Virus record (IMG/VR): IMGVR_UViG_2713896799_000015
Span: 1-41,227 of that record
DNA: 41,227 nucleotides
Reading direction: 5' to 3' (one strand)
DNA from: a virus
Lineage: Duplodnaviria; Heunggongvirae; Uroviricota; Caudoviricetes
In this document: one piece after another, positions 1,289 to 30,678 of the stretch
How positions within the stretch are numbered: the first letter of the stretch is position 1
Layout: every line of letters begins with the position of its first letter
Made by a program: the position numbers and the translations under genes
Notes under the pieces: generated by a model
Seen by the model: only the letters and a program-made list of their open reading frames with translations
Told to the model about the DNA's origin: nothing
Database searches by the model: none

Positions 1289-1771
1289 CTATCTGGTCAG
1301 GGTGTCGTACTGTTTTTCACAGACTCTTCCGGCTTCGGCTGCCCGGTCAGCATACTCTGCCAGTTGTCTGTTTCTCTCGAGAGATTTGCTGAGCACGTTG
1401 GCAAGCAAAACTCCGGTGTCTGCGGCTGACGTCCCAGCGCCGATAATGGCGTTATACTGCCTGAGCTGCTCACGGATGGCAACGAGCTGTTGCTGCAACC
1501 GGCCAGCGCGAGCGGCAGCATCAAGAGCATCATTGCGCGCCTGGTCGATCCTCTGCTGCGCTTCACGTTCATTGATCGATTTCTCCTGTTCGTAGTGCTG
1601 ACGAACTCTCTCATCTTCGGTTTTGCGGTCTTCTTTCGCCTGCGCATACCCGGCGTCGTACTGACGACTGCCGTGTGCATTCCAGGCGACAACTCCTGAT
1701 ATGACCAGAACAGCAAGCATCGCCATGATAACCAACTGTTTCCAGTATGCTTTTGCGAATGCCCAGATCAT
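1289..1771 (-). CDS. Rz-like i-spanin
   Basis: N-terminal TM helix then charged coiled-coil region; directly downstream of endolysin with 4-nt overlap. Confidence 0.6.
1297..1533 (-). CDS. Rz1-like o-spanin lipoprotein, embedded in Rz in another frame
   Basis: Internal Met followed by [11 protein letters not shown] lipobox and a Pro/Ser-rich 78-aa body, fully inside the Rz ORF. Confidence 0.5.
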   Translation of the reverse strand: MMLLMLPLALAGCSNSSLPSVSSSGSITPLSALGRQPQTPEFCLPTCSANLSRETDNWQSMLTGQPKPEESVKNSTTP

Positions 1772-2397
1772 ACCGCCAGCACCTTACTGGCAGTGATGTA
1801 TCGCGCGCGCCGGTCATCAATGCCGTTCCGACCACCATTGATAAGCAGAGTTACACGTGCAATATCTCCGGTATACTTCATGCAGCCTTTGCTGGAGAAG
1901 AACCACGCCGCGCTACGAGCCGCGTATTCGTCCTGCGCCAGCAGTTCAGGACTCTCCAGCAGGTCAACCTTAAGACCGTTTCCACAGTCACGATAGTTAT
2001 TCAAACCGGTAATCTGGATAAGTCCGCGCCCACGGTAGTTCCAGCCGTCACCATGGGCATTGTTACCCATGCGTTTGCTGTACACCAGATTTGCGATCGC
2101 ACGCTGGCGCTCGAGTGGTAATGGCGGTTCACCAGCACGGCGACCCAGTGCGTTGGCTTGTCCCTGAGTGAGACGACCGGCACGAACGAAGTTAGCCAGT
2201 CCGGTGACGCTGTAGTTGAAATTTTCCTGCAACCGGATGAAGCCTCCAGACTCATGCCCAACCTGAGCAATAAACATTGCCTGATCTTCTGGTTTGCTGA
2301 TACCAAACTCTTTCATCGCAGAAGTTATATGCGAGAACCAGCGTGCGGCCAGCGCCTCGCTAATACCAGCAGCTCGCTGGAATTGTTTAATCTCCAT
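1768..2397 (-). CDS. Endolysin, GH19 (chitinase-like) lysozyme type
   Basis: Motifs [12 protein letters not shown] and [15 protein letters not shown]; start taken at internal MEIKQ (ATG at 2397) rather than the longer ORF. Confidence 0.75.
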
Positions 2398-2695
2398 GTT
2401 TAGACCTCGATATTTTGAAAATCTGAACAACGTTACCGCGTGTTTTAATAACCGCGGCAAGCATGACAGCGTTGATAATGACCTCAGATAAATCCACAGC
2501 CATTGGCGTGCGTAACCAGATTGCATAGACGACACGAACAGGAATACTGGCAGCAGCAACAATAAGGAAATAAGCAAGCCACCCTCCCCATCTTCGATGT
2601 TGAGAGCCGTTACGCCGGAATGTGACAACGCGAATTGCTATGCCAGTACAAATAACTGCATTGGTGATAAGCAAAAAAAACTCATGCGTTACCAT
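2387..2695 (-). CDS. Holin/antiholin-like small membrane protein
   Basis: 102 aa with 2-3 hydrophobic helices, immediately upstream of endolysin. Confidence 0.45.
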
Positions 2696-3095
2696 CGTCT
2701 TTTCTCCCCGGAATTAAATCGCGTGGATTGTCTGAACGGTGGTAGAGCCATATACCAATACGCACAGCGACAATTGCTGACACGAATGCGCCAGCAGAGA
2801 AAACAATCCCTTTTTCAAAAGAGTCCTGCGTGATGGTAGGGATCAGGCTGGCTATGCCGATAAGAATTGATGCTGCTGGTTTGTAGAAAAGAAGTCCGCA
2901 GAGAAAGCTAAGCATCGATAAGAGTACGCGACGATGAATTGGGTACTCTACCGCAGAGGTAACAAAAATTACCGCACCAGCCAAAGACCCTAAAGCAACC
3001 TCAGGAGGAACTCCTGCTATAACCGCAGCAAGAGAACTCATACTAAGCCATTGATTTAAAGATTCGCTGGTTAGCTGAACTGACATAAAGACCAC
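2682..3095 (-). CDS. Holin-like membrane protein
   Basis: 137 aa, several TM segments, charged C-terminus; first gene of lysis cassette. Confidence 0.45.
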   Translation of the reverse strand: MVFMSVQLTSESLNQWLSMSSLAAVIAGVPPEVALGSLAGAVIFVTSAVEYPIHRRVLLSMLSFLCGLLFYKPAASILIGIASLIPTITQDSFEKGIVFSAGAFVSAIVAVRIGIWLYHRSDNPRDLIPGRKDDGNA

Positions 3096-3240: not shown

Positions 3241-5181
3241 ATGTCTTATTTAAAATACAGAACAGATATTGATGGGCTGCGAGCTATTGCGGTTTTGCTG
3301 GTCGTGCTGTACCACGCAAACTTTCCTATTCATGGTGGTTTTATTGGTGTAGATGTTTTTTTCGTCATATCAGGATATCTCATTACCAACATCATATATA
3401 AAGAGACTAAAAGAAATATTTTTTCATTCCTTAATTTTTACAAACGTCGAATAAAGAGATTGCTCCCAGCTTTTGCTTTTCTTCTTTTATTTTTATTTGT
3501 TTACTGCAAATTATATTTGATGCCAGATGAACTTATATCATTCTCTAAAAGTGCGGTATACGCTCTTCTTGGCATAAGCAATTTCTATTTTTTTAGTAGC
3601 ACAGGTTACTTTAACTCAACCTCTTATGAACCGCTTTTACACACATGGTCGCTTTCCGTTGAAGAGCAGTTCTACATTGTATGGCCTTTCATCGTTTTCA
3701 TGCTCGCTCGGAACTCAGGGACAAAAAAAGCAATAATAATATCCTCATTACTATTTATTGTATTCCTTGGTATTTCACAGTATGGAGCGGTTAATTATAA
3801 AACAGCAGCGTATCTCCTACTGCCTTTTAGGTTCTTTGAGTTGCTCTCAGGTGCCCTACTTGCTATCTATAAAGATTCAATAACAAAACATCTGCGCCAC
3901 GGTTCTGTAATTTCACTGGTCGGCGTAATGCTGATTGTGTTGAGTTCATTATTTATAAATTCTAACACGCCATTTCCTGGGTTCACTGTTTTGCCTACAT
4001 GTTTAGGCGCTGTAATGCTTATTGCTGCAGGTGACTCATCCAAAAACTTCATTTCTAAAGTGCTGTCTTTAACTCCAGTTGTTTATGTAGGAAGAATTTC
4101 CTACTCTCTTTATTTATGGCACTGGCCTGTACTGATTCTTGCTGAATATAGGGGGATCGATCTTACGGCCTTAAATGCGACGGCGCTCATACTTATCGCA
4201 TTCATCATGGCAAGCATAAGCTATCACTTCGTTGAAAAGCCATTTAGGAAGGATTCGCTGCAATATTTCAGGACTGCATTTATAACCATCTACCTGATAC
4301 CATTAATAGTATCCGCTGCCTATGCAGCGTACATTTTAAAAAATGATGGTTTTCGCGCCAAAAGTTCAGAGTTAGTATCTGAATTAGAAGAGAGAAATGC
4401 GACAAATATTATGCGCCCACAGTGTATTGATAAATTATTTATCGGTAATGTAAATGACTGTCATCTTGGCGTTAATAAAGGCGAAGTAGATGGCGTGCTT
4501 CTTGGTGACTCCTTTGGTAATGCATATGCTTACTTTATTGATGAACTTGCGAAAGATGCTGGAATATCAATAACAGATACTACATATAGCTCAACACCTG
4601 TAATATCAGGAATTTATGTGCAGGATATCAGGAATAAGATATCTGACATAGATGCTAACCTGATAATGACATATACAAAAAACAGGCTGGAGTATGCAGC
4701 AAAACAAAAGTTCGCGATAATTTCCGTTTTTTGGGATCAGTACGGGCCACAAAATAATTACTTCCGTATCTTCGATAAAAACGGTGACGTATCGGAGAAT
4801 GCTTACCAGTTGCAATCTGAAGCAATAAAATATCTGCTGTCCAATGGCGTGAAAGTTTACATCATTGCAAGACCTTACCAGTCTATTGGCCCTGCTGCGA
4901 TAAACAAACTGCGCCAAATTAAGCTGCGGCATGGGGATGTAACAACTGAAAAATATGAATACGGCGTAAAGAAAGATGATCGGATAGAATACAAGTTAAA
5001 GCAGGAGTTCCCTCAGATAACGCTAATCGATCCTAACGATGTACTTTGCCACAAAGGGGAATGTGATGCCATCGTGGATGGAAAGATCATTTTCAGAACT
5101 GATGGTTCACACCTGAATGCTGTTGGAGCAAAAAAAATCGGGGAAGAGTATTTGAAAAACTACGCAAACCCATTTCGATAA
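3241..5181 (+). CDS. O-antigen acetyltransferase, OafA/Oac-like (acyltransferase-3 membrane domain plus C-terminal SGNH-type domain)
   Basis: N-terminal RTDIDGLRAIAVLLVVLYHA...GVDVFFVISGYLIT motif, about 10 TM segments, 646 aa; AT-rich and opposite in strand to neighbours (moron). Confidence 0.8.
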   Translation: MSYLKYRTDIDGLRAIAVLLVVLYHANFPIHGGFIGVDVFFVISGYLITNIIYKETKRNIFSFLNFYKRRIKRLLPAFAFLLLFLFVYCKLYLMPDELISFSKSAVYALLGISNFYFFSSTGYFNSTSYEPLLHTWSLSVEEQFYIVWPFIVFMLARNSGTKKAIIISSLLFIVFLGISQYGAVNYKTAAYLLLPFRFFELLSGALLAIYKDSITKHLRHGSVISLVGVMLIVLSSLFINSNTPFPGFTVLPTCLGAVMLIAAGDSSKNFISKVLSLTPVVYVGRISYSLYLWHWPVLILAEYRGIDLTALNATALILIAFIMASISYHFVEKPFRKDSLQYFRTAFITIYLIPLIVSAAYAAYILKNDGFRAKSSELVSELEERNATNIMRPQCIDKLFIGNVNDCHLGVNKGEVDGVLLGDSFGNAYAYFIDELAKDAGISITDTTYSSTPVISGIYVQDIRNKISDIDANLIMTYTKNRLEYAAKQKFAIISVFWDQYGPQNNYFRIFDKNGDVSENAYQLQSEAIKYLLSNGVKVYIIARPYQSIGPAAINKLRQIKLRHGDVTTEKYEYGVKKDDRIEYKLKQEFPQITLIDPNDVLCHKGECDAIVDGKIIFRTDGSHLNAVGAKKIGEEYLKNYANPFR

Positions 5182-5211: not shown

Positions 5212-7443
5212 TTAAGACTTCTTAATGTACGACCATGTAACAGTGGTCGTACCGCTGCTGGTAATAGATATATTCCTTTCTGATGCGCTTGCTGTGAGGA
5301 ACGCCGCAGTCTTCAGCGTCTGGATCATTGCTGTCGTACCATCATAAATTACCAGGAATGAAATCGCGTAGTTTGCACCTCCGCCAGAAACCCACACGTT
5401 AACATCATAAACTCCCTCAGAGTTTGGCAAAGTAAATAGCACGGACGCTACGTTAGCGTTGACCGATTTAGTACCCTTGTCGGTATAGACCGTGGGCACC
5501 TGAAGCCCATTGGCATTTTTATTTTCTACATACCCACCAGCAATAACGCCTGACGTGATGCAGTTCGTGTAGTTAACGTTGCCGGTGCTCACAGTAGAGA
5601 TGGTTGGAGTTCCTCCGGCCGGAGCCTGGAACCGGCAGTTATCTGCATCAACCTGCGAGGTTACATCTGCGTGGATGAATGATGGATAGCCGGCCATTCC
5701 TTCAAAAGCGATCGGCGTACCATCGAAGCTATCTTTGCAGTTCAGCATCTTCACGCGAGATCCATTCATCGCGCGGTAAAAATCAACGATACCATTAGAA
5801 CCACCGAAAGATGTTTTCAACTTGTTGCCAGAACCAACTGCCCCGACTATCGAAACGGTTGAATTATCGAATGTCATAAACGCCACCTCAAGTGCTGAGT
5901 TGTTGTTTATAACGTTCGCCTCACCATCAAAACCGGAGATAAGAAATCCGTGACAATTCGAAAGGTAAATAGCAGACTGACCGATAGACGCGTTGGAGTT
6001 TACTGTCATCTTATCTGCTGCGCAGTTCGTCATCTGCCCTGAAAGGAGGTTTGTTAAATACCACGCGCATACACCCCCCATTACATAGCAGGACTCATAA
6101 TGGATCGTCGTGCCGGTGTTTTTGTAGAAACCACCGCGACTGCGACGCACCCATACATGCTCAAGCCTAGACATATAATTTCCAGAGTCGTCATATACTC
6201 CCCACCATGCCCCATCTATATCGACGTTTTTAATCCTTATCAAACCCGGCGATGTCTCACCACCATTTATAAGAATGCCAATTTTACCGTCGTTTGTGGC
6301 AGCATCTGTTGGATAGTCAATTCCATTCTGATCATAGAAAATATATAAATTCTCAATATTTCCTGAAGCAAAAGACTCTCCATAATGGAAGCACGCTTTA
6401 TTTCCAATTACGGAAATAAAAGTCCCTGATCTGTTTATTATGTTATTACACTCACCGTATACAGTTGCAGATGTATTCATCTTAATAATGTCATTAACAA
6501 AATATGCATTTCCACCTGGAATAAACACATTTCGTCCAGTGTTAATAGCTGCCTGTATTCCTGCGTAGTCAAAAGACTGGGTAAGCGATGTCACAAATGG
6601 ATATACCATTTGTGCTGCTGTCAATGTTGAAAACACTTCGCTTAACTGATGAAGTTTTCCATCGCCTGTAGCACCAAAATCTTTTGCACTAATAAAATCG
6701 CTGTTTTTATCATGCTGTGTACGAATAAATGAACTAATGAAAGGTTGCTTCACCGAGATCAGAGCATCGCCTTTCCCGTCCTCGCCGCTGGCCAACTGGT
6801 TGAATACGTCAGCCGCCGTTCCTGAAGGCACAGGGAACGGAACGGGCTTACCGTTGGCGATGCCGATTATGCTTCCTTCAAGTTGAGCGAGAGGTGGCAG
6901 CGGATCGATATAAGAATCAGGAACACGGATTGTATGGTCGATATTCGATAAAACTGTACTGTCCACATAATTCTTTGTGGATGCATCCTGCGGGTTTACC
7001 GGGTCTTTCAGGTTTCGAATATAGTTGTTCAGCGCGTTATAATAATTTGCCACGAATGACGGCTTGCGCAGCGCCAAGCTAAACCAACTTCGAACCTGCT
7101 GGATCAGCATCGTTAGCTTATCAAAAGCATCCTCATGCACTTCTGCAAAGAACTTACCCTGATTACGCAAATCAGTTTCCTGCGTAACCGGGAGCTCTCG
7201 TGATATAGAAATCTGGTAACCGTTAGCTAACGCCTTCGACAGAATTACATTACCGCCGTTATATCCACCAGCCCCAGTGACAGTGTAATCAGTATCAAGA
7301 GCCAGCACAGCGATATTTTCGTCAAGGTCAACCACCTGCACTACCAGATCAGATTCCTTGAAAACCCTAAAGGTATAAGGGAATGAAGTCGTAACGCCAT
7401 TGCCTGTGTATTCGTTGTGGTCAACTTCGGTTGAGACCGTCAT
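5212..7443 (-). CDS. Tailspike / tail fiber protein
   Basis: N-terminus (YTGNGVTTSFPYTFRVF...) resembles the T7 gp17-type adaptor domain; long Gly/Asn-rich beta-helix-like body; last gene of the T7-like structural order. Confidence 0.7.
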   Translation of the reverse strand: MTVSTEVDHNEYTGNGVTTSFPYTFRVFKESDLVVQVVDLDENIAVLALDTDYTVTGAGGYNGGNVILSKALANGYQISISRELPVTQETDLRNQGKFFAEVHEDAFDKLTMLIQQVRSWFSLALRKPSFVANYYNALNNYIRNLKDPVNPQDASTKNYVDSTVLSNIDHTIRVPDSYIDPLPPLAQLEGSIIGIANGKPVPFPVPSGTAADVFNQLASGEDGKGDALISVKQPFISSFIRTQHDKNSDFISAKDFGATGDGKLHQLSEVFSTLTAAQMVYPFVTSLTQSFDYAGIQAAINTGRNVFIPGGNAYFVNDIIKMNTSATVYGECNNIINRSGTFISVIGNKACFHYGESFASGNIENLYIFYDQNGIDYPTDAATNDGKIGILINGGETSPGLIRIKNVDIDGAWWGVYDDSGNYMSRLEHVWVRRSRGGFYKNTGTTIHYESCYVMGGVCAWYLTNLLSGQMTNCAADKMTVNSNASIGQSAIYLSNCHGFLISGFDGEANVINNNSALEVAFMTFDNSTVSIVGAVGSGNKLKTSFGGSNGIVDFYRAMNGSRVKMLNCKDSFDGTPIAFEGMAGYPSFIHADVTSQVDADNCRFQAPAGGTPTISTVSTGNVNYTNCITSGVIAGGYVENKNANGLQVPTVYTDKGTKSVNANVASVLFTLPNSEGVYDVNVWVSGGGANYAISFLVIYDGTTAMIQTLKTAAFLTASASERNISITSSGTTTVTWSYIKKS

Positions 7444-7619: not shown

Positions 7620-7639
7620 ATTGCATGGAGAAGATTAAG

Positions 7640-7897
7640 ATGCAGCAGTATCACTATCCACTGGAAGACGGATTTACCGAAAGGATTCACACGCCGGGAG
7701 GCGTCAGGTCACTGGTGGAGGGATCGCACTTGATGAAATTACTCCGGGATCTCGATAAGGATGGATTTAATGTCGATGGCCCACTTGCCGAACTGACTGC
7801 ACTGATTAACTACGTCACCAGCTCACAGATGTCTATGCGGGATCTGCAAACACATCTCGACTATTGTGCCGAACAATTACGAAAACAAACCCGGTAA
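7640..7897 (+). CDS. Small antirepressor-like protein (stand-alone homolog of Ant C-terminal domain)
   Basis: GGAG 9 nt upstream of ATG; aligns with the last ~85 residues of the 312-aa Ant (shared YxYPL, IHxPxGV, LMKLL, DG, AELT, RDxQTH). Confidence 0.55.
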   Translation: MQQYHYPLEDGFTERIHTPGGVRSLVEGSHLMKLLRDLDKDGFNVDGPLAELTALINYVTSSQMSMRDLQTHLDYCAEQLRKQTR

Positions 7898-7971: not shown

Positions 7972-8910
7972 TCAGAAGAACCCTGCCTTGTCGTTGATGT
8001 ATTCCGCGTGCGTCTGGATATCACGCAGGCATTTGCTCACACCGACGATGTAGCAGAACATGGTGGTCAGCTCCGCCGCCGCGCCCGATACATCGTGCCC
8101 GTCTTCCTGTAACTGGTTCAGCAGTTTCATCAGCAGTGAGTTCTCCGTCAGGCCGAGAACACCCGACGGCGAATGAATCAGACTGCGGTAGCCTGGCTTC
8201 AATGGATAACCATAACATTTTGTCTGTGTTTTAATTGCCTCACGAAGCGCATCTAACATCTTGACTGCCACTTCATCATTCTCTGATGCAGATCCAGCAG
8301 GGAGATACTCCCCTTCAAGCGGAACCCGAGCAACAAGAGACAACGCTTCGGCAAATTGATCTTCACCAATTTCTTTGTACGAACAGCCAAAATGAGATTT
8401 CAGTGACGACCACATGGTGATCATCGCCTTAGCCTGTTTTTCTTTTGGCAGAGACTGACCGCGACTCATGACGAGTTGTTTAATGGCTTCCTGCTGTTCA
8501 GTTGTTATTTTACCCGGCAACGCCTTTTTAGCTTTGCGTGGGTTAACCACATGGCCTTTAGTCCAGTACTCGTAGAGCACATCGTCACACTCTTCCTGAT
8601 ACTGGATTACCTTGTCGCGGATTTCAGGGCGGACTTTGTTAGGGCTGATGCTGTTCAACCAAGCTGCCAATTTTCGTAAAGCCATACAAATCATGGCTTG
8701 CACCCCACCGGCAGAAGGTATGGTGATTTCCACCATACCCTTCGAGAAGCGTTGAGAAATCTTCTTATGTTGAGATTTCCAGTCTAGCCCCATTCCCTCA
8801 ACGATAGGTTTCATTGGGGTATACGGTTCGCCGTTGTGATTGACAACATAAAGCTCTGCGCCGTGGAATGGCACGTTGATAGTAGATACTGCTGTTGCTA
8901 TACTCGTCAT
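7972..8910 (-). CDS. Antirepressor Ant
   Basis: 312 aa, directly downstream of an Arc-like gene as in P22 immI; C-terminal domain shared with the small LexA-linked gene. Confidence 0.65.
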   Translation of the reverse strand: MTSIATAVSTINVPFHGAELYVVNHNGEPYTPMKPIVEGMGLDWKSQHKKISQRFSKGMVEITIPSAGGVQAMICMALRKLAAWLNSISPNKVRPEIRDKVIQYQEECDDVLYEYWTKGHVVNPRKAKKALPGKITTEQQEAIKQLVMSRGQSLPKEKQAKAMITMWSSLKSHFGCSYKEIGEDQFAEALSLVARVPLEGEYLPAGSASENDEVAVKMLDALREAIKTQTKCYGYPLKPGYRSLIHSPSGVLGLTENSLLMKLLNQLQEDGHDVSGAAAELTTMFCYIVGVSKCLRDIQTHAEYINDKAGFF

Positions 8911-8958
8911 GTCGTTAATTCCTATACGTAGTTTTACGATACTGAAGCCCTGACGGTC

Positions 8959-8973
8959 TGGCCACCGTGGGGC
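8959..8973. promoter_or_regulatory. Mnt/Arc-type operator-like site (core CCACCGTGGGGC)
   Basis: Shares 12 bp with the 9165-9179 palindrome; lies between arc and ant. Confidence 0.4.
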
Positions 8974-8982
8974 TTCGCTGTT

Positions 8983-9150
8983 TTATGCCACGCTATTCTT
9001 CTCACCAGTGAGTCCATACACTTTCCTCAGCTGATAGATAATCTCTGTATTGAACTTTCGGCATTCTTTTTCGCCATTTCTTTCAATAGCTAACTTCACA
9101 TCGTCCGGAAAACGAACTCGTCGTTGACACATCTCTTTTGCTTTTTGCAT
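8983..9150 (-). CDS. Arc-like ribbon-helix-helix repressor
   Basis: 55 aa from ATG at 9150 with AAGGAG RBS; RVRFPDDVKLAIERNGEKECRKFNTEIIYQL resembles the P22 Arc fold signature. Confidence 0.55.
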   Translation of the reverse strand: MQKAKEMCQRRVRFPDDVKLAIERNGEKECRKFNTEIIYQLRKVYGLTGEKNSVA

Positions 9151-9164
9151 TTCATATCTCCTTA

Positions 9165-9179
9165 GCCCCACCGTGGGGC
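9165..9179. promoter_or_regulatory. Perfect 15-bp palindrome GCCCCACCGTGGGGC (Mnt-operator-like)
   Basis: In the divergent arc/mnt control region; central CACCGTG recalls the P22 Omnt core (from memory). Confidence 0.5.
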
Positions 9180-9270
9180 AAAATAATTGTCACACCGTGC
9201 GTCATTGATGTCAAGCACACGGTGAGGCATACTTCAATCATTGCAAGTAACTCAATATTTGGTGAAGAAC

Positions 9271-9702
9271 ATGAGCAGAGAAGATCCACAACTAAGGATC
9301 AGACTTCCCGTCGAAGTAAAAGAAAAAATAGAAATTTCTGCAAAAGCCAATAAGCGATCAATGAACGCTGAAATAGTACAACGTCTTGACACCAGCTTTC
9401 TGAAAGATATTCATGAAGATGACGTAATTTCTGCTTATGAAGCAAAAATCATTGCAAACAATGCACGACATGAAATATCAAATATTATTTTCAAAAGAAC
9501 CTTTAATGAAATTAATAAGAAAATAACACTTGGACATACAAGTTTTTATATAAACCTTAATGACCTTGAACTGGAATCACTTGCAGATAATGATTACCAG
9601 ATCATCTTTGAAAAAACATTTAATAAGCTCAATGAACTAGGTTACATCATCTGTGAAAACTCATGGGATGCAGATGGTTTTGGAATTGAAATACCTGAAT
9701 AG
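9271..9702 (+). CDS. Mnt-like RHH repressor with ~70-aa AT-rich C-terminal extension
   Basis: N-terminus MSREDPQLRIRLPVEVKEKIEISAKANKRSMNAEIVQRL parallels P22 Mnt; protein is 143 aa versus 82 for Mnt. Confidence 0.5.
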   Translation: MSREDPQLRIRLPVEVKEKIEISAKANKRSMNAEIVQRLDTSFLKDIHEDDVISAYEAKIIANNARHEISNIIFKRTFNEINKKITLGHTSFYINLNDLELESLADNDYQIIFEKTFNKLNELGYIICENSWDADGFGIEIPE

Positions 9703-9744
9703 GAAGAACAAAAGGCGTGTACATATTACACGTCTTTAATACAA

Positions 9745-10356
9745 TTGAAAAACGCCACATTACTGATGTATGTTACAACAAGGAGCGATATTTTGAAAAC
9801 CATATCTATATTAAAGGTTGCATTAGGCGTCGCTATTATTTTGACTCTCTCAATATTGTTTTATTTTTACCACAAACAAACTGCTATTGCTCTTGATAGT
9901 CACGCGGCAAACTCATTTTTCTCAGAGTACATAGTGCCGCTATCAGGAAGCGGTATAACAAATAAATATACTGACTATGACATCAAATATGGAATTGATG
10001 ATGGGGAGACTATTGTATTACATGTAATCATTAAAAACCTAATGACAGTAAATAAAAATACAGACTTCAACGATAAAAATACAATACATCACAACAACAG
10101 CAAAACATTAATTTCTTATAGTAGCAACATCTATACGGATAAATACCTAAAATACATATCAGAAGATACAATAAAAGAAACCCGCGAAAAGTTAAAAAAC
10201 ATATATTGTGCATCCGGCAGTTTTCACAAATTATCGCCGCAAGAGCGTTTATTCTACGAAGCAAGAAAACAACGTAAGTCAATAATATTACATTATTATG
10301 CTGATTCAGGGGAGACACTCATATTTAATATTGGGGTTTCCCCTGAATCATGCTAA
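9745..10356 (+). CDS. Membrane-anchored protein of unknown function (candidate superinfection-exclusion protein)
   Basis: Single N-terminal TM helix, Asn/Lys/Tyr-rich body, very AT-rich; occupies the position of sieA next to mnt in P22. Confidence 0.4.
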   Translation: MKNATLLMYVTTRSDILKTISILKVALGVAIILTLSILFYFYHKQTAIALDSHAANSFFSEYIVPLSGSGITNKYTDYDIKYGIDDGETIVLHVIIKNLMTVNKNTDFNDKNTIHHNNSKTLISYSSNIYTDKYLKYISEDTIKETREKLKNIYCASGSFHKLSPQERLFYEARKQRKSIILHYYADSGETLIFNIGVSPESC

Positions 10357-10367
10357 AGGTGTTTAAC

Positions 10368-13300
10368 TCACCGCATCACCGGATCCACCTGGTTTATTAG
10401 TGGCGCAATCCAGAACAGGTTATTGCCGGGTATCAGGGTTCGGACATTATGCACAATACGATCACCGGCATCACCATTAAACACTCCTGCGGTCACATCA
10501 ATGATGCTATCCGCAAGACCAAATGACGGTCCGAATAGAGATCCTACGAATCCACGACTGGCATACCTAGACTGTGTGCCAGTGCCAAATAAAGCCCCCA
10601 GCCCAACAGCACCACCAGTAGCCTTTTCAGCCATATTGTTATATTCCATCAATGGCCCAAGAATACCGGATCTATCTATACCCTCAAGCACCAGCTTCTC
10701 TGGTGACCAGTCAACATTTTTCCCTTTCGATGCTTCTTTAAGCGCATAGACCAGTGAGCCAAGAGCAATCTGAAATGCAGTGCCATAATAAAATTGCGCA
10801 GTTCCTTCCTGTAACCCACCAAGTAGCGCACGGTTGTATGAAGCCGTTGTGAATGATTTAAACTGAAATATCGTTCGCCCCATTGGAGTACTCGCCCATA
10901 AAGGTGTGTCACCAATACCGGGGGTGATGATAGTGTTATTAACGTCTTTCAGAACCGCTGACTGGAATACTCCGGCAACGTACTGATCGTCCCATTTATC
11001 AAAGTTACCAATGTGCCATCCATCAATTACCTCACCATGTTTCTCGAACTCACTGCGAATACGCGCAGCCATATTGTCGTTGATACCGAGTTTTGCCATG
11101 CGACGTGCAGAAAACGCACCAGACAAAATACCGTCTGACGTGAGCATTCCGTTCATGGATTTGTTTATGTCATTAAATCGATCCATGAGTGTCAGCTTGC
11201 CGAAGGCATCAGTAATTCGCTCCATTCCTGCTTCGACTGCTGTTGTCCTGGAAGAACTGTCAACAAGATCACCAATTGCACGAGAACGTGAATGTAGTAC
11301 AGTTTCCAATCCAATCCCCATCTTCAACATCTCTTCTTTGCTGGCCTTAAATGCCGGTGATTGGGATATCTGAGAAGCATAGCCTTTCATGGAGTTACGG
11401 AAACCATTAACCATAACCCCTCTGGCCAGATCTGGAATAGCTGATACTGTCATTCCACCGAGTTTGGTCGTGAAGTTCACATCCCGCAGAAAAGCGCCAG
11501 CACGAACAAAAAACGAAGACGGGTCATCAGGCATACCATATGTACCAACAAGACGATCGCGTAATGCTGTTATGTCTCTGAGATCATTTGCTCTTGATTT
11601 TGAAAGTCTGGACTGTTCTTTCCGTAATTCCTTTTCGTACTTTCGCATTAATGAATCGAGTTTACCCTGAGGAACAACTTCACCATTGCTCTCATAACGT
11701 GCTTTCAGATTTGCCACACTTTCGTCATATTTCGCCTTTATTTTTTCAGGCACTTCCCGTAACAGACTGTCATATTCGTCCTCAATTAATTGCAGACGCT
11801 CTGTCATAGTTCGTTTGCCAAATGTTCTCGTCAACTCAATTTCTGCTGCCGCTTCACGGATATGACGTTGTAGAACGTAATTCACATCACTTTCGAGATA
11901 ATCCCTGATAAGACTATCAGGCACATTTAATGTTCTTTCTTTCGTACTACCTGCGGCTTTTACAGAAAATACGCTGACAAAATCCTGTGGAACCTTAGCA
12001 CCAGTAATTTTATTAATTACGATATCCGCTGCAATTTCAGCATCCTCAGGATCCAGTGTTTTATTGCCTCTCGACCACCAGTCAACCAAAATACGTCGAA
12101 ATTTATCGCGTTCACTGATTATTTTTCCAACTTTATATATACGTGGGAAATAGCTTGCCTGGCCTAATGCTTTCAGTTCTTCATCTGGCGGCAATAAACC
12201 AAGCTTTTGCATTTCAACCTTCACCCGATTTAATACAGTTCGCATCGCCTGCGCCGTTTCCTGAACAACAGGATTAGCATGCACATCACCGCTTCGCATA
12301 GCATTCCCAACCTGCTGACGAAATGAATCAAAACTCATGTCACCACCATCAGCTTTATACTTTGCGTATGCCTGTTTATTTCCGACAACAACAGCAGCTT
12401 CTTCACGCTGCCATCCACGTGTACGGGTTTCTACAGCTACCGGTGTTTCAATCCCCCTTTCATTTCCTTTAAGGGTGAAATTATTTTCGGCTAACTCCAG
12501 CGTTGTTTTTCGCACTGTCTTGGACGGAGACTCCATTAACCTTGTCAAAGGAGTAAGATAGCTCCCTGCTTTCCATGCAGCCTTTCCAACCACCCCACCG
12601 GAAACAGGGGTTAAATCATCCAGAGTCGCTGTATCAATTTTCATAGCACCAACACTACCACCATCAGAAAGCGAAGCGGCAGCCCTGTCAGTCGCTGATG
12701 TAATGCTCATATTATCAAGAGCATCAGCAACCTCACGCGTGGCTGCAGCCCGGACGGATGGCGAAAGCGCAACACCAGCACTGGCAAACACGCCGCTCAT
12801 CATCGCACCCGCTGCAATGTGAGCGGTACTTTCACCCCATGAGCGTGTTATTTGCTGATTATTCAGCACAACCTCGCTTAATGCTGTACCGGCTGCACCA
12901 ATCGCAATCTGTGAGCCAATACGCGCCAGTGCCCCTCCTTGAGCACCGGGGATAAACATTGACGCAACAGTAACCGGATCCATTCCCGCAGCAATACTGG
13001 CAAGGGTTCCAACTACGCCAGCATCAGACAATAAACGTCTGTCTTCATTTTCATCATCTATCTGCTGCTTAATCCACGCCGTTTCCTCTGGCGATCGGGA
13101 ATCTGCAAATTTCGCCCCCCAGTATTCATAACCGTGCAACTCATTTTTATCAGCATATGGGTTATAACCTTCGACCGGTTCAAACTGTCTGGCTGGTCGG
13201 AAAAAACCAGCCAGAATATTGTTCTGTCGCATTGCAGCCCCCCATACGGAAGGCTCCGGTGGCAATGGCTCAGGATTAGCCCCTTCCGGAAGGGCAACAT

Positions 13301-13382
13301 CAAACCCAGTTTGTTCCGGCAAAACATTACCTGACGGGATCAGTCCGTTATTAAGATCTTCAGCTTGTGCATAAACTGGCAT
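10368..13382 (-). CDS. Internal virion (ejection) protein, large
   Basis: 1004 aa, last of the core-protein run before the tailspike (T7 gp16-like position); start overlaps upstream stop as TAATG. Confidence 0.55.
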   Translation of the reverse strand: MPVYAQAEDLNNGLIPSGNVLPEQTGFDVALPEGANPEPLPPEPSVWGAAMRQNNILAGFFRPARQFEPVEGYNPYADKNELHGYEYWGAKFADSRSPEETAWIKQQIDDENEDRRLLSDAGVVGTLASIAAGMDPVTVASMFIPGAQGGALARIGSQIAIGAAGTALSEVVLNNQQITRSWGESTAHIAAGAMMSGVFASAGVALSPSVRAAATREVADALDNMSITSATDRAAASLSDGGSVGAMKIDTATLDDLTPVSGGVVGKAAWKAGSYLTPLTRLMESPSKTVRKTTLELAENNFTLKGNERGIETPVAVETRTRGWQREEAAVVVGNKQAYAKYKADGGDMSFDSFRQQVGNAMRSGDVHANPVVQETAQAMRTVLNRVKVEMQKLGLLPPDEELKALGQASYFPRIYKVGKIISERDKFRRILVDWWSRGNKTLDPEDAEIAADIVINKITGAKVPQDFVSVFSVKAAGSTKERTLNVPDSLIRDYLESDVNYVLQRHIREAAAEIELTRTFGKRTMTERLQLIEDEYDSLLREVPEKIKAKYDESVANLKARYESNGEVVPQGKLDSLMRKYEKELRKEQSRLSKSRANDLRDITALRDRLVGTYGMPDDPSSFFVRAGAFLRDVNFTTKLGGMTVSAIPDLARGVMVNGFRNSMKGYASQISQSPAFKASKEEMLKMGIGLETVLHSRSRAIGDLVDSSSRTTAVEAGMERITDAFGKLTLMDRFNDINKSMNGMLTSDGILSGAFSARRMAKLGINDNMAARIRSEFEKHGEVIDGWHIGNFDKWDDQYVAGVFQSAVLKDVNNTIITPGIGDTPLWASTPMGRTIFQFKSFTTASYNRALLGGLQEGTAQFYYGTAFQIALGSLVYALKEASKGKNVDWSPEKLVLEGIDRSGILGPLMEYNNMAEKATGGAVGLGALFGTGTQSRYASRGFVGSLFGPSFGLADSIIDVTAGVFNGDAGDRIVHNVRTLIPGNNLFWIAPLINQVDPVMR

Positions 13383-28518: not shown

Positions 28519-28560
28519 AACCACCGTGGTAATAGTTACCGTTGTGGTAATAGTACCATG

Positions 28561-29922: not shown

Positions 29923-30678
29923 TTAAACTGCTAGTTGCAATTGCATTTCAAAGCGGTCGCGTTGTTCACAATACGCAAGAGAACCAGGGCTATTGTGTGC
30001 CTCAATCCGTTCTACCATTAATGCTGCGCGTGTCTCTTTACTTGCAGGTGCATAAGCCCCAGACCAGGCTTTATCAATACCGATGTTTCGAGCGACGTTC
30101 GTACTATCTGCGCTGGCTAAGGGTAATTTTGTGAATATCAGCGGATTTAACATGCGCAATCCATGTAGTTTCGTAACCGGCTGACCATGCTCATCAACAA
30201 TGTGACGAATCAGGTCTTTCATTCTGGCTACCGCAAGAGTTGGGCGCTTTACGTCATAGTCGCCACAACTACCGATAGCCACTCGCGGAAACTCATTGCA
30301 CAAATGAATAAATCGCTCGTCACTTTCATTCATGTGCCACACTGGAACGCCAGCTAGTTTTCCGTGAGGCCACTCATTCAGAAGCGCATCATTTTCCTCC
30401 TCTCCGCCATCAATAACATCCGGGATAATGGCAAAATCGAATCCTGGGTGATTCTTCCAGCGAGCGACAAACTCGTAGTAATCGCTCCAGTCGATTTTGT
30501 TTTTGCCAGCTGCTTTCCAGGCGGTGAATGCACCGTTGTCCAGCGCGAACGACTGACAGTATTCAGCCGCGAGATTGATCTGGCCTGAATGCGCAAAACT
30601 GATAAACGCATGTCGCCCTTTCCATGCTCTCATTGCGCACGTATCAGGAGTAATAGGCCCACCGTGGTAGTGAATCAT
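29923..30678 (-). CDS. Hypothetical protein, 251 aa
   Basis: No clear family; weak resemblance of VAIGSCGDYD to a TGT/DpdA glycine-rich motif. Confidence 0.4.
   Translation of the reverse strand: MIHYHGGPITPDTCAMRAWKGRHAFISFAHSGQINLAAEYCQSFALDNGAFTAWKAAGKNKIDWSDYYEFVARWKNHPGFDFAIIPDVIDGGEEENDALLNEWPHGKLAGVPVWHMNESDERFIHLCNEFPRVAIGSCGDYDVKRPTLAVARMKDLIRHIVDEHGQPVTKLHGLRMLNPLIFTKLPLASADSTNVARNIGIDKAWSGAYAPASKETRAALMVERIEAHNSPGSLAYCEQRDRFEMQLQLAV

What the first reader, a model, noticed from the sequence alone, without database searches (positions are those of the whole stretch)
9271..10356. AT-rich Mnt-fusion plus membrane protein at the sieA position: candidate exclusion or defence module
The Mnt-like protein carries an extra ~70-aa C-terminal domain of unknown function, and the next gene encodes a single-pass membrane protein with an Asn/Lys/Tyr-rich body. 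Both are far more AT-rich than the surrounding phage genes, indicating separate acquisition. In P22 this slot holds sieA; the RHH-plus-effector pair could also be a toxin-antitoxin-like or abortive-infection module. No recognisable domain is visible, so it may be uncharacterised.
Basis: inference. Interest (0 to 1): 0.6.

Follow-up and report, generated by a model that had tools for sequence, protein, structure and literature searches.

The report
Mnt repressor plus periplasmic exclusion candidate
The two AT-rich genes are real but are not a pair: the first is the prophage's Mnt-type repressor of its antirepressor, and the second is an uncharacterised exported protein that always sits against the phage's DNA-ejection genes and probably blocks infection by related phages.

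Summary
The window is a TL-2011b-like temperate podovirus prophage of E. coli with T7-type internal core (ejection) proteins. It is not P22, but it carries a P22-type immI cassette.

**Gene A (9271-9702, 143 aa)** is a true Mnt analogue.
- It aligns with all 83 residues of P22 Mnt (E 3e-14).
- It lies divergent from arc-ant.
- It faces a GCCCCACCGTGGGGC palindrome that shares the CCACCGTGG core and the position of the P22 mnt operator.
- It carries about 57 extra C-terminal residues, conserved in more than 260 enterobacterial protein clusters.
- Homologues in other prophage types keep arc-ant but have no gene B.

**Gene B (true start TTG 9793, 187 aa)** has one N-terminal signal/anchor segment and a periplasmic domain with two invariant cysteines.
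- Its family is small (about 18 representatives among 1.8 billion proteins).
- In all 39 contigs examined it abuts, convergently, the last ejection-protein gene, with or without an upstream mnt.
- It is not related to SieA.
- It is AT-rich in every lineage and carries excess nonsynonymous polymorphism.

The toxin-antitoxin or abortive-infection pair idea is rejected. A periplasmic superinfection-exclusion role for B is the best-supported hypothesis, but it is untested.

The parts
7972..8910 (-). Antirepressor Ant (312 aa), the regulated target of the immI cassette
   Evidence: Pfam P22_AR_N 5.7e-45. PGAP names it 'phage antirepressor N-terminal domain-containing protein'.
8983..9150 (-). Arc-like small RHH repressor (55 aa; ATG at 9150, AAGGAG upstream)
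   Evidence: PHROG Arc-like repressor 1.8e-5. PGAP and RefSeq annotate a 55-aa Arc-like repressor. The sequence was read.
9165..9179 (.). Palindromic operator GCCCCACCGTGGGGC, proposed binding site of gene A (equivalent of the P22 mnt operator)
   Evidence: Inverted repeat I6. It has the same CCACCGTGG core and the same place (between the ant promoter -10 and the arc start) as the P22 mnt operator AGGTCCACCGTGGACCT. It is conserved in Enterobacter and Yersinia prophages. The motif is enriched in the window: 4 sites against about 0.4 expected.
9186..9229 (-). Ant-type promoter (-35 TTGACA 9214-9209, TG-extended -10 GACAAT 9191-9186). It is bracketed by two further CAC(C/G)GTG operator-like sites (9188-9199 and 9218-9229).
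   Evidence: Promoter scan scored 10 of 12 matches. Inverted repeat I4 and direct repeat family D1 have 24-25 nt spacing. The block TGTCACACCGTGCGTCATTG..GTCAA is almost invariant across three prophage types.
9271..9702 (+). Gene A: long-form Mnt repressor (143 aa). Residues 1-46 form the RHH domain, 55-86 a long helix equivalent to the Mnt tetramerisation helix, and 87-143 an extra small alpha/beta domain.
   Evidence: PDB Mnt, Arc and AmrZ match the N-terminus only; AF2 pLDDT 78; P22 Mnt E 3e-14.
9711..9737 (+). 11-bp hairpin AAAGGCGTGTA-CATAT-TACACGTCTTT between A and B. It is a weak, possibly bidirectional terminator or attenuator after mnt.
   Evidence: RNA fold of 9700-9800. The terminator scan flagged it on the minus strand. 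P22 has an annotated terminator after mnt-orf59a and a separate sieA promoter.
9718..9774 (+). Two weak sigma-70-like sites upstream of gene B (TGTACA-16-TACAAT and TTGAAA-18-TATGTT). These are candidate promoters for B itself.
   Evidence: Both score 9 of 12, no better than shuffled sequence, so this is a suggestion only.
9793..10356 (+). Gene B: exported or anchored periplasmic protein (187 aa, TTG start, SD AAGGAG 9780-9785). Residues 1-27 form the signal/anchor, about 31-187 the AspS/PA3611-like alpha/beta domain, and C139 and C187 are invariant cysteines.
10048..10134 (+). Subfamily-specific Asn/Lys-rich insertion in gene B (residues ~86-114). It is disordered in the model, and one allele has a 7-residue deletion here.
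   Evidence: Alignment gap in the 8 short-form family members of alignment A3. pLDDT is below 50 for residues 86-109. The P0001 allele lacks DFNDKNT.
10368..13382 (-). E3: last and largest internal virion (ejection) protein, 1004 aa. Its 3' end lies 11 nt from the gene B stop. It is the constant neighbour of the B family.
   Evidence: PHROG 342 'internal virion protein' 6e-209. Neighbours are a T7 gp14-family core protein and an SLT transglycosylase. B-E3 adjacency holds in all 39 contigs.
10378..10393 (+). Small hairpin after the gene B stop, inside the 3' end of E3. It is a weak terminator-like site.

Best explanation
The interval holds two functionally independent genes of a TL-2011b-like temperate podovirus.

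Gene A
- Gene A is the maintenance repressor (Mnt analogue) of a mobile immI cassette.
- Its N-terminal ribbon-helix-helix dimer binds the palindrome GCCCCACCGTGGGGC. It probably also binds the two flanking CAC(C/G)GTG sites that bracket the ant promoter.
- In the lysogen this keeps arc-ant, and hence the antirepressor, silent.
- The helix at residues 55-86 corresponds to the Mnt tetramerisation helix.
- By inference, the extra ~57-residue alpha/beta domain adds oligomerisation capacity to bridge the three sites, which lie 24-25 bp apart.

Gene B
- Gene B is a separate moron-type gene. It is transcribed away from the late operon, by read-through from the mnt promoter and/or from its own weak promoter.
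- Its product is inserted or exported by Sec through the N-terminal signal/anchor.
- It folds in the periplasm into a disulfide-stabilised AspS/PA3611-like domain.
- By inference, it binds a periplasm-exposed segment of the T7-type ejection conduit (E2 SLT protein or E3) of a superinfecting related phage.
- This would block DNA delivery, making B a functional analogue, but not a homologue, of P22 SieA or T4 Sp/Imm.

Shown versus inferred
- Shown: gene structures, homologies, operator conservation, independence of A and B, constant B-E3 adjacency, predicted fold, and polymorphism pattern.
- Inferred: expression in the lysogen, periplasmic location, the disulfide, the binding target, and the exclusion phenotype.
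For: Gene A
- Pfam Arc match at E 1e-14.
- 32% identity over all 83 residues of P22 Mnt, E 3e-14.
- PDB matches to Mnt, Arc and AmrZ cover the N-terminus only.
- It is divergent from a 55-aa arc-like gene plus an antirepressor here and in Enterobacter and Yersinia prophages.
- The operator palindrome shares the core and position of the P22 mnt operator and is conserved across prophage types.
- Purifying selection is very strong: 1 nonsynonymous against 7 synonymous segregating sites.

Gene B
- A conserved family with invariant P49, Y138-C139, Y168-Y169, G173 and C187.
- A single N-terminal hydrophobic segment, with K/R before it in nearly all full-length members and acidic residues after it in most. 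There is no second transmembrane segment and no lipobox.
- AF2 core pLDDT is 85-95.
- B has the same order of secondary-structure elements as AspS and PA3611. Its cysteines lie at the positions of the AspS disulfide, between helix alpha2 and the C-terminus (PMC3542185).
- In 39 of 39 contigs B lies convergent to an E3 homologue and a few to about 40 nt from its end, with or without mnt.
- It diverges faster than E3: 47% against 69% identity, and 28% against 50%.
- pN/pS is 0.66, against 0.04-0.16 for its neighbours (Fisher p = 0.0013).
- In about 8 E. coli genomes with 95-99% identical E3 DNA, the two inspected carry an unrelated single-pass membrane protein (PHROG 21690) in the same slot. This marks a cargo hot-spot.
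- The layout parallels P22: mnt, terminator, sieA promoter, sieA, gene 16.
- SieA escape mutations map to ejection proteins (PMC10883804).
- The prophage also carries an O-antigen acetyltransferase. This parallels P22, which has gtrABC plus sieA.
Against: - There is no experimental or transcript evidence that B is expressed in lysogens or excludes any phage.
- The promoter-like sites before B are no better than chance.
- At GC 0.32, the region could be silenced by H-NS (general knowledge of E. coli, not tested here).
- The fold assignment rests on an AF2 model built from only 11 sequences, and the Cys-Cys distance could not be measured.
- Sequence profiles do not link B to the AspS family or to any defence model.
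- Frameshifted B alleles are common in databases (P0002, P0003 with 197 member sequences, P0004). High pN/pS can also mean relaxed constraint.
- Which of Mnt-L or Arc binds which of the three sites is not known.
Confidence: 0.45

Rival explanations
1. B is a lysogenic-conversion or fitness factor that acts on a host envelope machine rather than on incoming phage. For example, it could bind the C-terminal S-domain of a host secretin (T2SS GspD-beta or another secretin) as a non-lipidated, inner-membrane-tethered pilotin mimic. That would change secretion, the surface, or sensitivity to secretin-dependent agents.
For: The closest folds are the T2SS pilotin AspS and its non-lipoprotein periplasmic relative PA3611 (PMC3542185). 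The protein is exported, and it is a prophage cargo gene.
Against: - B shows no sequence-level relation to the pilotin family.
- It has no lipobox and is never found near T2SS genes.
- It is strictly linked to the ejection-protein gene in four host genera. That link is easier to explain by a phage-directed function.
Confidence: 0.18
2. B works for the phage itself during lytic growth or entry. It could be a periplasmic regulator of lysis timing (like T4 RI). It could instead act as a helper or guard that stops progeny from ejecting into already infected or lysed cells.
For: B has a signal-anchor plus a small periplasmic domain, as T4 RI does (general knowledge). It is conserved with the virion module across genera.
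Against: - B is on the strand opposite the late operon.
- It is about 7 kb from the lysis cassette (window ~1289-3095; lysis genes as annotated in the near-identical prophage).
- It is replaced by an unrelated membrane protein in phages with near-identical E3, so it is dispensable for the phage cycle.
Confidence: 0.1
3. B is a decaying or silent passenger with no current function. Its AT-richness, fast evolution and frameshifted alleles would then reflect relaxed selection.
For: pN/pS is 0.66. Truncated or frameshifted alleles exist. The 29-aa low-complexity insertion is disordered.
Against: - The core motifs and both cysteines are invariant from E. coli to Serratia, Providencia and Proteus at 26-34% identity.
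- 36 of 5426 complete E. coli genomes carry the region 9200-10400 at 95-100% nucleotide identity.
- The model folds with high confidence in the conserved core.
Confidence: 0.1
4. This is the first reader's alternative: A and B form a two-gene toxin-antitoxin-like or abortive-infection module, with A as an RHH antitoxin/regulator and B as a membrane effector.
For: RHH proteins are common antitoxins, and there is a weak FitA-like_RHH match at E 8.8e-5, below the Pfam cutoff. The two genes share a strand and are adjacent, and in L002 the B start overlaps the end of a short mnt.
Against: - A homologues occur without B in all 9 inspected Enterobacter and Yersinia places, always with arc-ant.
- B occurs without any mnt in Serratia, Providencia/Proteus and other contigs.
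- A has an operator at the ant promoter, not upstream of itself and B.
- B is an exported globular protein, unlike type II toxins.
- PADLOC has no model for either protein. The only hit is a 15-bit ThsB match.
Confidence: 0.03

Closest known systems
P22 Mnt repressor and the immI region (mnt / arc / ant)
   Same: - The N-terminal ribbon-helix-helix domain matches.
- The alignment covers all 83 Mnt residues, including the C-terminal oligomerisation helix.
- The gene is divergent from arc-ant.
- The palindromic operator has the same CCACCGTGG core at the same place relative to the ant promoter and the arc start.
   Different: - Gene A has about 57 extra C-terminal residues forming a small alpha/beta domain of unknown role.
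- There are three CAC(C/G)GTG sites instead of one mnt operator plus one arc operator.
- The cassette sits in a non-P22 podovirus and also in siphovirus-type prophages.
P22 SieA (inner-membrane superinfection exclusion protein; Leavitt et al. 2024, PMC10883804)
   Same: - The genomic position is the same: downstream of mnt, convergent with and abutting the last ejection-protein gene.
- It is a small envelope protein.
- It is prophage cargo that is not present in all relatives.
- The proposed function is the same: blocking the ejection-protein conduit.
   Different: - There is no sequence similarity.
- SieA has three transmembrane helices and a conserved cytoplasmic FxRYPxEAxxFNK motif. B has one N-terminal segment and a ~155-residue periplasmic globular domain with two cysteines.
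- The phage type and ejection proteins differ (T7-like gp14/15/16 analogues against P22 gp7/20/16).
AspS (GspS-beta) T2SS pilotin and P. aeruginosa PA3611 (PDB 4FTF, 5ZDH, 3NPD)
   Same: - The order of elements is alpha1, beta1-3, alpha2, alpha3, beta4-5, alpha4, with the extra helix after beta3 also seen in PA3611.
- A cysteine pair links the end of alpha2 to the C-terminus, as in AspS Cys74-Cys111.
- It is periplasmic. Like PA3611, it is not a lipoprotein.
   Different: - Sequence identity is 11-15%, with no profile-level match.
- It has an N-terminal anchor or signal without a lipobox.
- It is phage-encoded, next to ejection-protein genes rather than secretin genes.
- It has a 29-aa insertion in the beta3 region.
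T4 Spackle (Sp) and Imm, periplasmic or membrane superinfection-exclusion proteins (general knowledge, not tested here)
   Same: These are small exported proteins that act in the periplasm or at the inner membrane against the entry apparatus of a superinfecting phage. Sp inhibits the tail lysozyme. The phage here has an SLT-domain ejection protein.
   Different: No sequence or fold relation was detected. The T4 proteins are made by a lytic phage early in infection, not by a prophage.

Membership tests
Arc/Mnt ribbon-helix-helix repressors (Pfam PF03869); P22 Mnt-type immI maintenance repressor | N-terminal RHH domain matching the family model above its threshold | tested here: met
   PF03869 scores 54.5 bits against a cutoff of 20.4, E 1.1e-14. 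The PDB profile search hits Mnt, Arc and AmrZ.
Arc/Mnt ribbon-helix-helix repressors (Pfam PF03869); P22 Mnt-type immI maintenance repressor | Similarity to Mnt beyond the RHH, covering the C-terminal oligomerisation helix | tested here: met
   BLASTP to P22 Mnt covers Mnt residues 1-83, E 3e-14. The model has a long helix at 55-86.
Arc/Mnt ribbon-helix-helix repressors (Pfam PF03869); P22 Mnt-type immI maintenance repressor | Divergent arrangement with arc and an antirepressor gene | tested here: met
   This holds in the window and in all 9 inspected places of homologues.
Arc/Mnt ribbon-helix-helix repressors (Pfam PF03869); P22 Mnt-type immI maintenance repressor | Palindromic operator between the ant promoter and arc | tested here: met
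   GCCCCACCGTGGGGC at 9165-9179 compares with the P22 mnt operator AGGTCCACCGTGGACCT. Actual binding was not tested.
Arc/Mnt ribbon-helix-helix repressors (Pfam PF03869); P22 Mnt-type immI maintenance repressor | Represses ant and is needed to maintain lysogeny | not testable with these tools
   This needs EMSA or footprinting and a deletion in a lysogen.
P22 SieA family | Detectable sequence similarity to SieA types A-C | tested here: not met
   BLASTP of B against P22 SieA gives E 0.25 over 42 residues of hydrophobic segment. Only type A was tested.
P22 SieA family | Three or four transmembrane helices and the conserved cytoplasmic FxRYPxEAxxFNK motif (PMC10883804) | tested here: not met
   B has one hydrophobic segment only, and the motif is absent from the B sequence.
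P22 SieA family | Location between the last ejection-protein gene and mnt / the tailspike | tested here: met
P22 SieA family | Blocks DNA injection of related phages | not testable with these tools
   This needs plating, adsorption and DNA-entry assays.
AspS/GspS-beta pilotin and PA3611-like periplasmic domain | alpha/beta fold with a 5-stranded sheet and 4 helices | tested here: met
   [not shown]
AspS/GspS-beta pilotin and PA3611-like periplasmic domain | Conserved disulfide between helix alpha2 and the C-terminal helix | tested here: inconclusive
   The invariant C139 (end of helix 124-138) and C187 (C-terminus) are at the equivalent positions.
AspS/GspS-beta pilotin and PA3611-like periplasmic domain | Lipoprotein signal (lipobox) for outer-membrane targeting (pilotins proper) | tested here: not met
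   No [LVI][ASTVI][GAS]C lipobox motif was seen on reading the N-termini printed; no pattern search was run.
AspS/GspS-beta pilotin and PA3611-like periplasmic domain | Sequence-profile membership, or a genomic link to a secretin | tested here: not met
   No Pfam family matches at E up to 1. The PDB profile search does not find AspS or PA3611. The neighbours are phage genes.
Type II toxin-antitoxin pair with RHH antitoxin | The two genes co-occur as a unit | tested here: not met
   A occurs without B, and B occurs without A.
Type II toxin-antitoxin pair with RHH antitoxin | Cytoplasmic toxin of a known fold | tested here: not met
   B has an export signal/anchor and matches no toxin family.
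Moron (independently transcribed prophage cargo gene) | Deviant base composition, orientation opposite to the flanking operon, and variable presence at a fixed slot | tested here: met
   B GC is 0.32-0.37 against 0.39-0.53 for E3 in five lineages. B is convergent with E3. An alternative cargo, PHROG 21690, occupies the same slot.
Moron (independently transcribed prophage cargo gene) | Own promoter and terminator, and expression in the lysogen | tested here: inconclusive
   Only weak consensus matches and weak hairpins were found. No transcript data are available.

The most novel reading that the evidence does not exclude
Gene B defines a previously undescribed family of periplasmic superinfection-exclusion proteins. 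In this reading, a pilotin-like (AspS/PA3611-fold) domain tethered to the inner membrane captures a segment of the T7-type ejection conduit (E3 or the SLT-bearing E2) of incoming related podoviruses and stops DNA delivery. The family would co-evolve with the adjacent ejection-protein gene.

Separately, the extra domain of the long Mnt could be a new oligomerisation or signal-sensing module controlling antirepressor release.
Probability: 0.3. Interest if true: 0.65.

Novelty: new variant of a known kind. Interest (0 to 1): 0.42.

Why it matters
If B is an exclusion protein, it would be a second, structurally unrelated solution to the problem P22 SieA solves. It would sit at the same genomic address but work from the periplasmic side, against T7-type ejection proteins. 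It would also give a handle on how these conduits assemble in the envelope, for example through escape mutants in E2 or E3.

It would add a first phage-linked role for the AspS/PA3611 fold.

The long Mnt family (more than 260 clusters across Enterobacterales, including Yersinia pestis prophages) is a widespread but unstudied variant of a textbook repressor. Its conserved three-site control region is directly testable.

If B has no phenotype, the locus is an ordinary immI cassette plus an orphan cargo gene.

Tried and rejected
- **Wrong lineage assumption.** I first assumed the phage was epsilon15/phiV10-like. tblastn with the 1004-aa protein shows relatives in Klebsiella phage ST512-KPC3phi13.3, Escherichia phage EC.W1-9 and Vibrio podophages instead. 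PGAP names the neighbours a T7 gp14-family core protein and an SLT transglycosylase. The assumption was dropped.
- **PADLOC.** The only hit is ThsB/TIR for B at E 0.0053 and 15 bits, which I treat as spurious. P0005 and gene A have no hits.
- **NCBIfam.** Nothing for B, and only weak RHH-type hits for A.
- **PDB sequence-profile searches.** A matches in the RHH only. B matches nothing meaningful; the iota-carbonic anhydrase hit at E 0.29 was rejected.
- **Foldseek of the B model against viral structures (BFVD).** No match at E up to 0.001.
- **afdb50 library.** Not available.
- **Locus searches.** The search for related loci with the full family alignment failed for lack of a conserved block. 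The genome-contig scan with a narrower alignment found only one locus, in Proteus cibi.
- **P0141.** This 1163-aa hit at E 2.6e-5 is probably a low-complexity artefact.
- **Promoter search upstream of B in relatives.** No conserved promoter emerged.
- **Literature.** No paper on this gene, and none linking pilotin-like proteins to exclusion.
- **Prediction limits.** No signal-peptide or TM predictor was available, so topology rests on hydropathy and charge bias.
Full report
**What the window is**

The region 8900-10450 is 99.6% identical to Escherichia phage TL-2011b. The 9200-10400 segment is present, on chromosomes only, in 36 of 5426 complete E. coli genomes.

PGAP annotation of a prophage that is 100% identical over 9200-10400 (FDAARGOS_1300) gives this gene order:
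- lysis cassette
- tailspike
- small genes
- antirepressor
- 55-aa gene
- 'Arc family DNA-binding protein' (143 aa)
- 'hypothetical protein' (187 aa)
- on the other strand, a 1004-aa protein, an SLT-domain protein, a T7 gp14-family core protein, and the head genes

The 1004-aa protein (E3 here) is related to internal virion proteins of Klebsiella, Escherichia and Vibrio podophages. The phage is therefore a temperate podovirus with a T7-type ejection apparatus that has acquired a P22-type immI cassette. It is not a P22-like phage, and my early epsilon15 assumption was wrong.

**The observation**

Both ORFs are real.
- Gene A is 9271-9702 (143 aa). All homologues start MSREDPQ, so the ATG at 9271 is correct.
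- Gene B starts at TTG 9793, not 9745. There is an AAGGAG seven nt upstream. PHROG 8033 starts at ORF residue 17. PGAP gives 187 aa. Relatives start MK.. at the equivalent position.
- The interval has GC 0.326. The lowest-GC 1086-nt stretch of the window (GC 0.322) starts at 9245 and almost coincides with it (mean 0.480, sd 0.042).

**Gene A is the Mnt of an immI cassette**

- Its N-terminus matches Pfam Arc and the solved Mnt, Arc and AmrZ structures.
- It aligns with the entire P22 Mnt, including the C-terminal helix (32% identity, E 3e-14).
- The AF2 model (pLDDT 78) shows the two RHH helices (14-26, 31-41; the N-terminal strand is not resolved), a long helix at 55-86, and then strand-helix-helix-strand to residue 140. 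About 57 residues are therefore extra relative to Mnt.

The control region supports the assignment:
- On the minus strand there is a strong ant-type promoter: TTGACA, 17 nt, TG-extended GACAAT, at 9214-9186.
- The palindrome GCCCCACCGTGGGGC (9165-9179) lies between that promoter and the arc start. The P22 mnt operator AGGTCCACCGTGGACCT lies at the same place and shares the CCACCGTGG core.
- Two more CAC(C/G)GTG sites, at 24-25 nt spacing, overlap the -10 and flank the -35.
- The whole block is nearly invariant in an Enterobacter siphovirus-type prophage and in a Yersinia pestis lambda-tail prophage.

The family is large: 262 clusters, those listed being nearly all full-length matches at about 58-69% identity. 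In the 9 places inspected, the gene is always divergent from a 55-aa arc-like gene plus a Bro-N/P22_AR antirepressor. It is followed directly by a convergent tail gene, with no gene B. Within the TL-2011b clade it has 7 synonymous and 1 nonsynonymous segregating sites.

I conclude that A represses arc-ant in the lysogen. By inference, the added domain supplies extra oligomerisation to bridge the three sites.

**Gene B is independent of A and tied to the ejection-protein gene**

Searches of 5.8 billion and 1.8 billion proteins found only a small family, with 18 representatives at E up to 1e-3. Named members come from E. coli, Serratia, Providencia and Proteus; most have no organism label. Sequence identity to B is 26-48%.

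Family members share these features:
- one N-terminal hydrophobic segment, with K/R before it in nearly all full-length members and acidic residues after it in most
- the motif LSG..A.FF..Y.VP
- the C-terminal block YC...K.I...YYD..G..L.F.IG.SP.SC, with two invariant cysteines about 48-50 residues apart
- no lipobox
- some members (P0127, P0134) look like cleavable signal peptides

The window subfamily has a 29-residue Asn/Lys-rich insertion.

I collected 39 distinct contigs carrying a family member. In every one, tblastn places the 3' end of an E3 homologue on the opposite strand a few to about 40 nt after the B stop. The upstream side varies:
- the long Mnt is upstream only in the 17 TL-2011b-clade contigs
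- a short 120-aa Mnt overlaps the B start in L002
- the other 21 contigs have no mnt

Two further patterns were seen:
- B diverges in step with E3 but faster: 47% against 69% identity, and 28% against 50%.
- B is AT-rich relative to E3 in every lineage.

B is therefore an old, persistently AT-rich resident of this phage lineage, not a recent import. It is also not a partner of A.

**Not SieA, but the same address**

P22 has gene 16, then sieA (own promoter), orf59a, a terminator, mnt, and arc-ant. This is the same order as here.
- B shows no similarity to SieA.
- SieA has three transmembrane helices and a cytoplasmic FxRYPxEAxxFNK motif (PMC10883804). B has neither.
- Between A and B there is an 11-bp hairpin (9711-9737) and two weak promoter-like sites. 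This layout resembles the P22 terminator plus sieA promoter, but the evidence is only suggestive.

**Fold of gene B**

The AF2 model, built from 11 family sequences, has pTM 0.68. Block means of pLDDT in the conserved core are mostly 81-95. Values are low only in the anchor and the insertion.

- The order of elements is alpha1, beta1-3, an extra helix, alpha2, alpha3, beta4-5, and a short C-terminal helix. This equals AspS and PA3611.
- The invariant C139 (end of alpha2) and C187 (C-terminus) sit where the conserved AspS Cys74-Cys111 disulfide is (PMC3542185).
- I could not measure the distance in the model.
- AspS binds the C-terminal S-domain of a secretin through a hydrophobic groove, so this fold is a periplasmic peptide- or helix-binding module.
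- Sequence profiles do not connect B to that family, and B is not a lipoprotein. This is a resemblance in fold, not membership.

**Population signals**

Within the TL-2011b clade, nucleotide divergence is similar for A, B and E3.

| Gene | Nonsynonymous sites | Synonymous sites | pN/pS |
|---|---|---|---|
| B | 10 | 4 | 0.66 |
| A | 1 | 7 | 0.04 |
| Ant | 5 | 30 | 0.05 |
| E3 | 23 | 44 | 0.16 |

Fisher p is 0.0013 for B against the other three genes combined.

- Frameshifted alleles also exist. The signal fits either an arms race or relaxed constraint.
- 44 E. coli genomes have a near-identical E3 3' part (95-99.9% identity, nearly all 99% or more), and 36 have A plus B.
- In two of the others, the slot holds an unrelated 175-aa protein with an N-terminal transmembrane helix (PHROG 21690, WP_000451652.1). 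It has the same orientation and abuts E3.
- A fixed slot that swaps alternative small membrane proteins is typical of prophage cargo or exclusion hot-spots.

**Conclusion**

The toxin-antitoxin or abortive-infection 'pair' reading is rejected. A is an Mnt-type repressor of known kind with an uncharacterised added domain.

B is an uncharacterised exported protein. Its constant linkage to the ejection genes, periplasmic pilotin-like fold, cargo-slot behaviour and fast evolution make superinfection exclusion at the DNA-delivery step the best hypothesis. I put this at about 0.4-0.45.

The rivals are action on a host envelope machine, a role in the phage's own cycle, or no current function. None of the functional claims for B has been tested, and expression in the lysogen is not shown.

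Noticed in passing
window 3241-5181 (+): A 646-aa AT-rich gene (GC below 0.36) encodes an AT3 acyltransferase fused to an SGNH domain (Pfam 1.8e-37 and 2.7e-27). This is an OafA/Oac-type O-antigen acetyltransferase, a lysogenic-conversion gene next to the tailspike (5212-7443, -). It probably blocks adsorption of phages that use the same O-antigen. It has no PADLOC hit.
   Followed up: partly
window 7625-7897 (+): A 90-aa ORF is a stand-alone paralogue of the C-terminal domain of the adjacent antirepressor (45% identity to Ant residues 224-308, E 3e-22; PHROG 450). It lies on the opposite strand, between ant and the tailspike. It might modulate Ant or its target.
   Followed up: partly
window 9296-9297; L001 (TL-2011b NC_019445) about 6397: The deposited TL-2011b genome has an extra G (GG to GGG) in codon 8/9 of mnt. 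This shifts the frame, and RefSeq annotates a 113-aa protein from an internal ATG that lacks the DNA-binding strand. It is either a homopolymer sequencing error or a real mnt-defective allele in the induced phage. The window and the other 17 full-length viral-contig and genome copies compared are intact.
   Followed up: partly
window 8962-8970, 28521-28529, 30659-30667: There are three further exact copies of the operator core CCACCGTGG (4 sites in the window against about 0.4 expected). One lies in the arc-ant spacer within GGCCACCGTGGGGC, and the other two are far away in the early region. They may be additional Mnt-L binding sites.
   Followed up: no
L065 3448-3975 (E. coli MS8345) and L067 2448-2975 (MS 196-1): In prophages whose matched E3 DNA is 95-99% identical, the slot occupied by A plus B holds instead a 175-aa protein (WP_000451652.1, PHROG 21690, unknown function). 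It has an N-terminal transmembrane helix and sits next to antirepressor pseudogene fragments. It is an alternative cargo worth testing alongside B.
   Followed up: partly
window 10374-10418; e.g. L066 4001-4045 (E. coli MCJCHV-1): At least 26 listed E. coli genomes, mostly human isolates (probably about 36 of the 80 matching genomes), contain only a 45-nt exact match to the last 45 nt of the E3 gene, in unannotated DNA. In the one example inspected (L066) it lies between a 98-aa gene (PHROG 21905) and a 282-aa gene (PHROG 6118) of a related prophage that has a different last core protein. This looks like a recombination scar or a shared terminator at the module boundary.
   Followed up: partly
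L019 14519-14770 (P22 RefSeq record) and PHROG 795 / 2685: P22 mnt is labelled 'partition protein ATPase' in the RefSeq record, and so are the PHROG families that A matches. This is an annotation error that propagates to Mnt homologues in many Salmonella phage records.
   Followed up: no
window 9793-10356, alleles in L028-L055 and proteins P0001-P0004: The B alleles include a 7-residue in-frame deletion inside the Asn/Lys-rich insertion (P0001). Several frameshifted forms lose the C-terminal cysteine (P0002, P0004) or the last third of the protein (P0003, a cluster of 197 member sequences). B is therefore inactivated in part of the natural population.
   Followed up: partly
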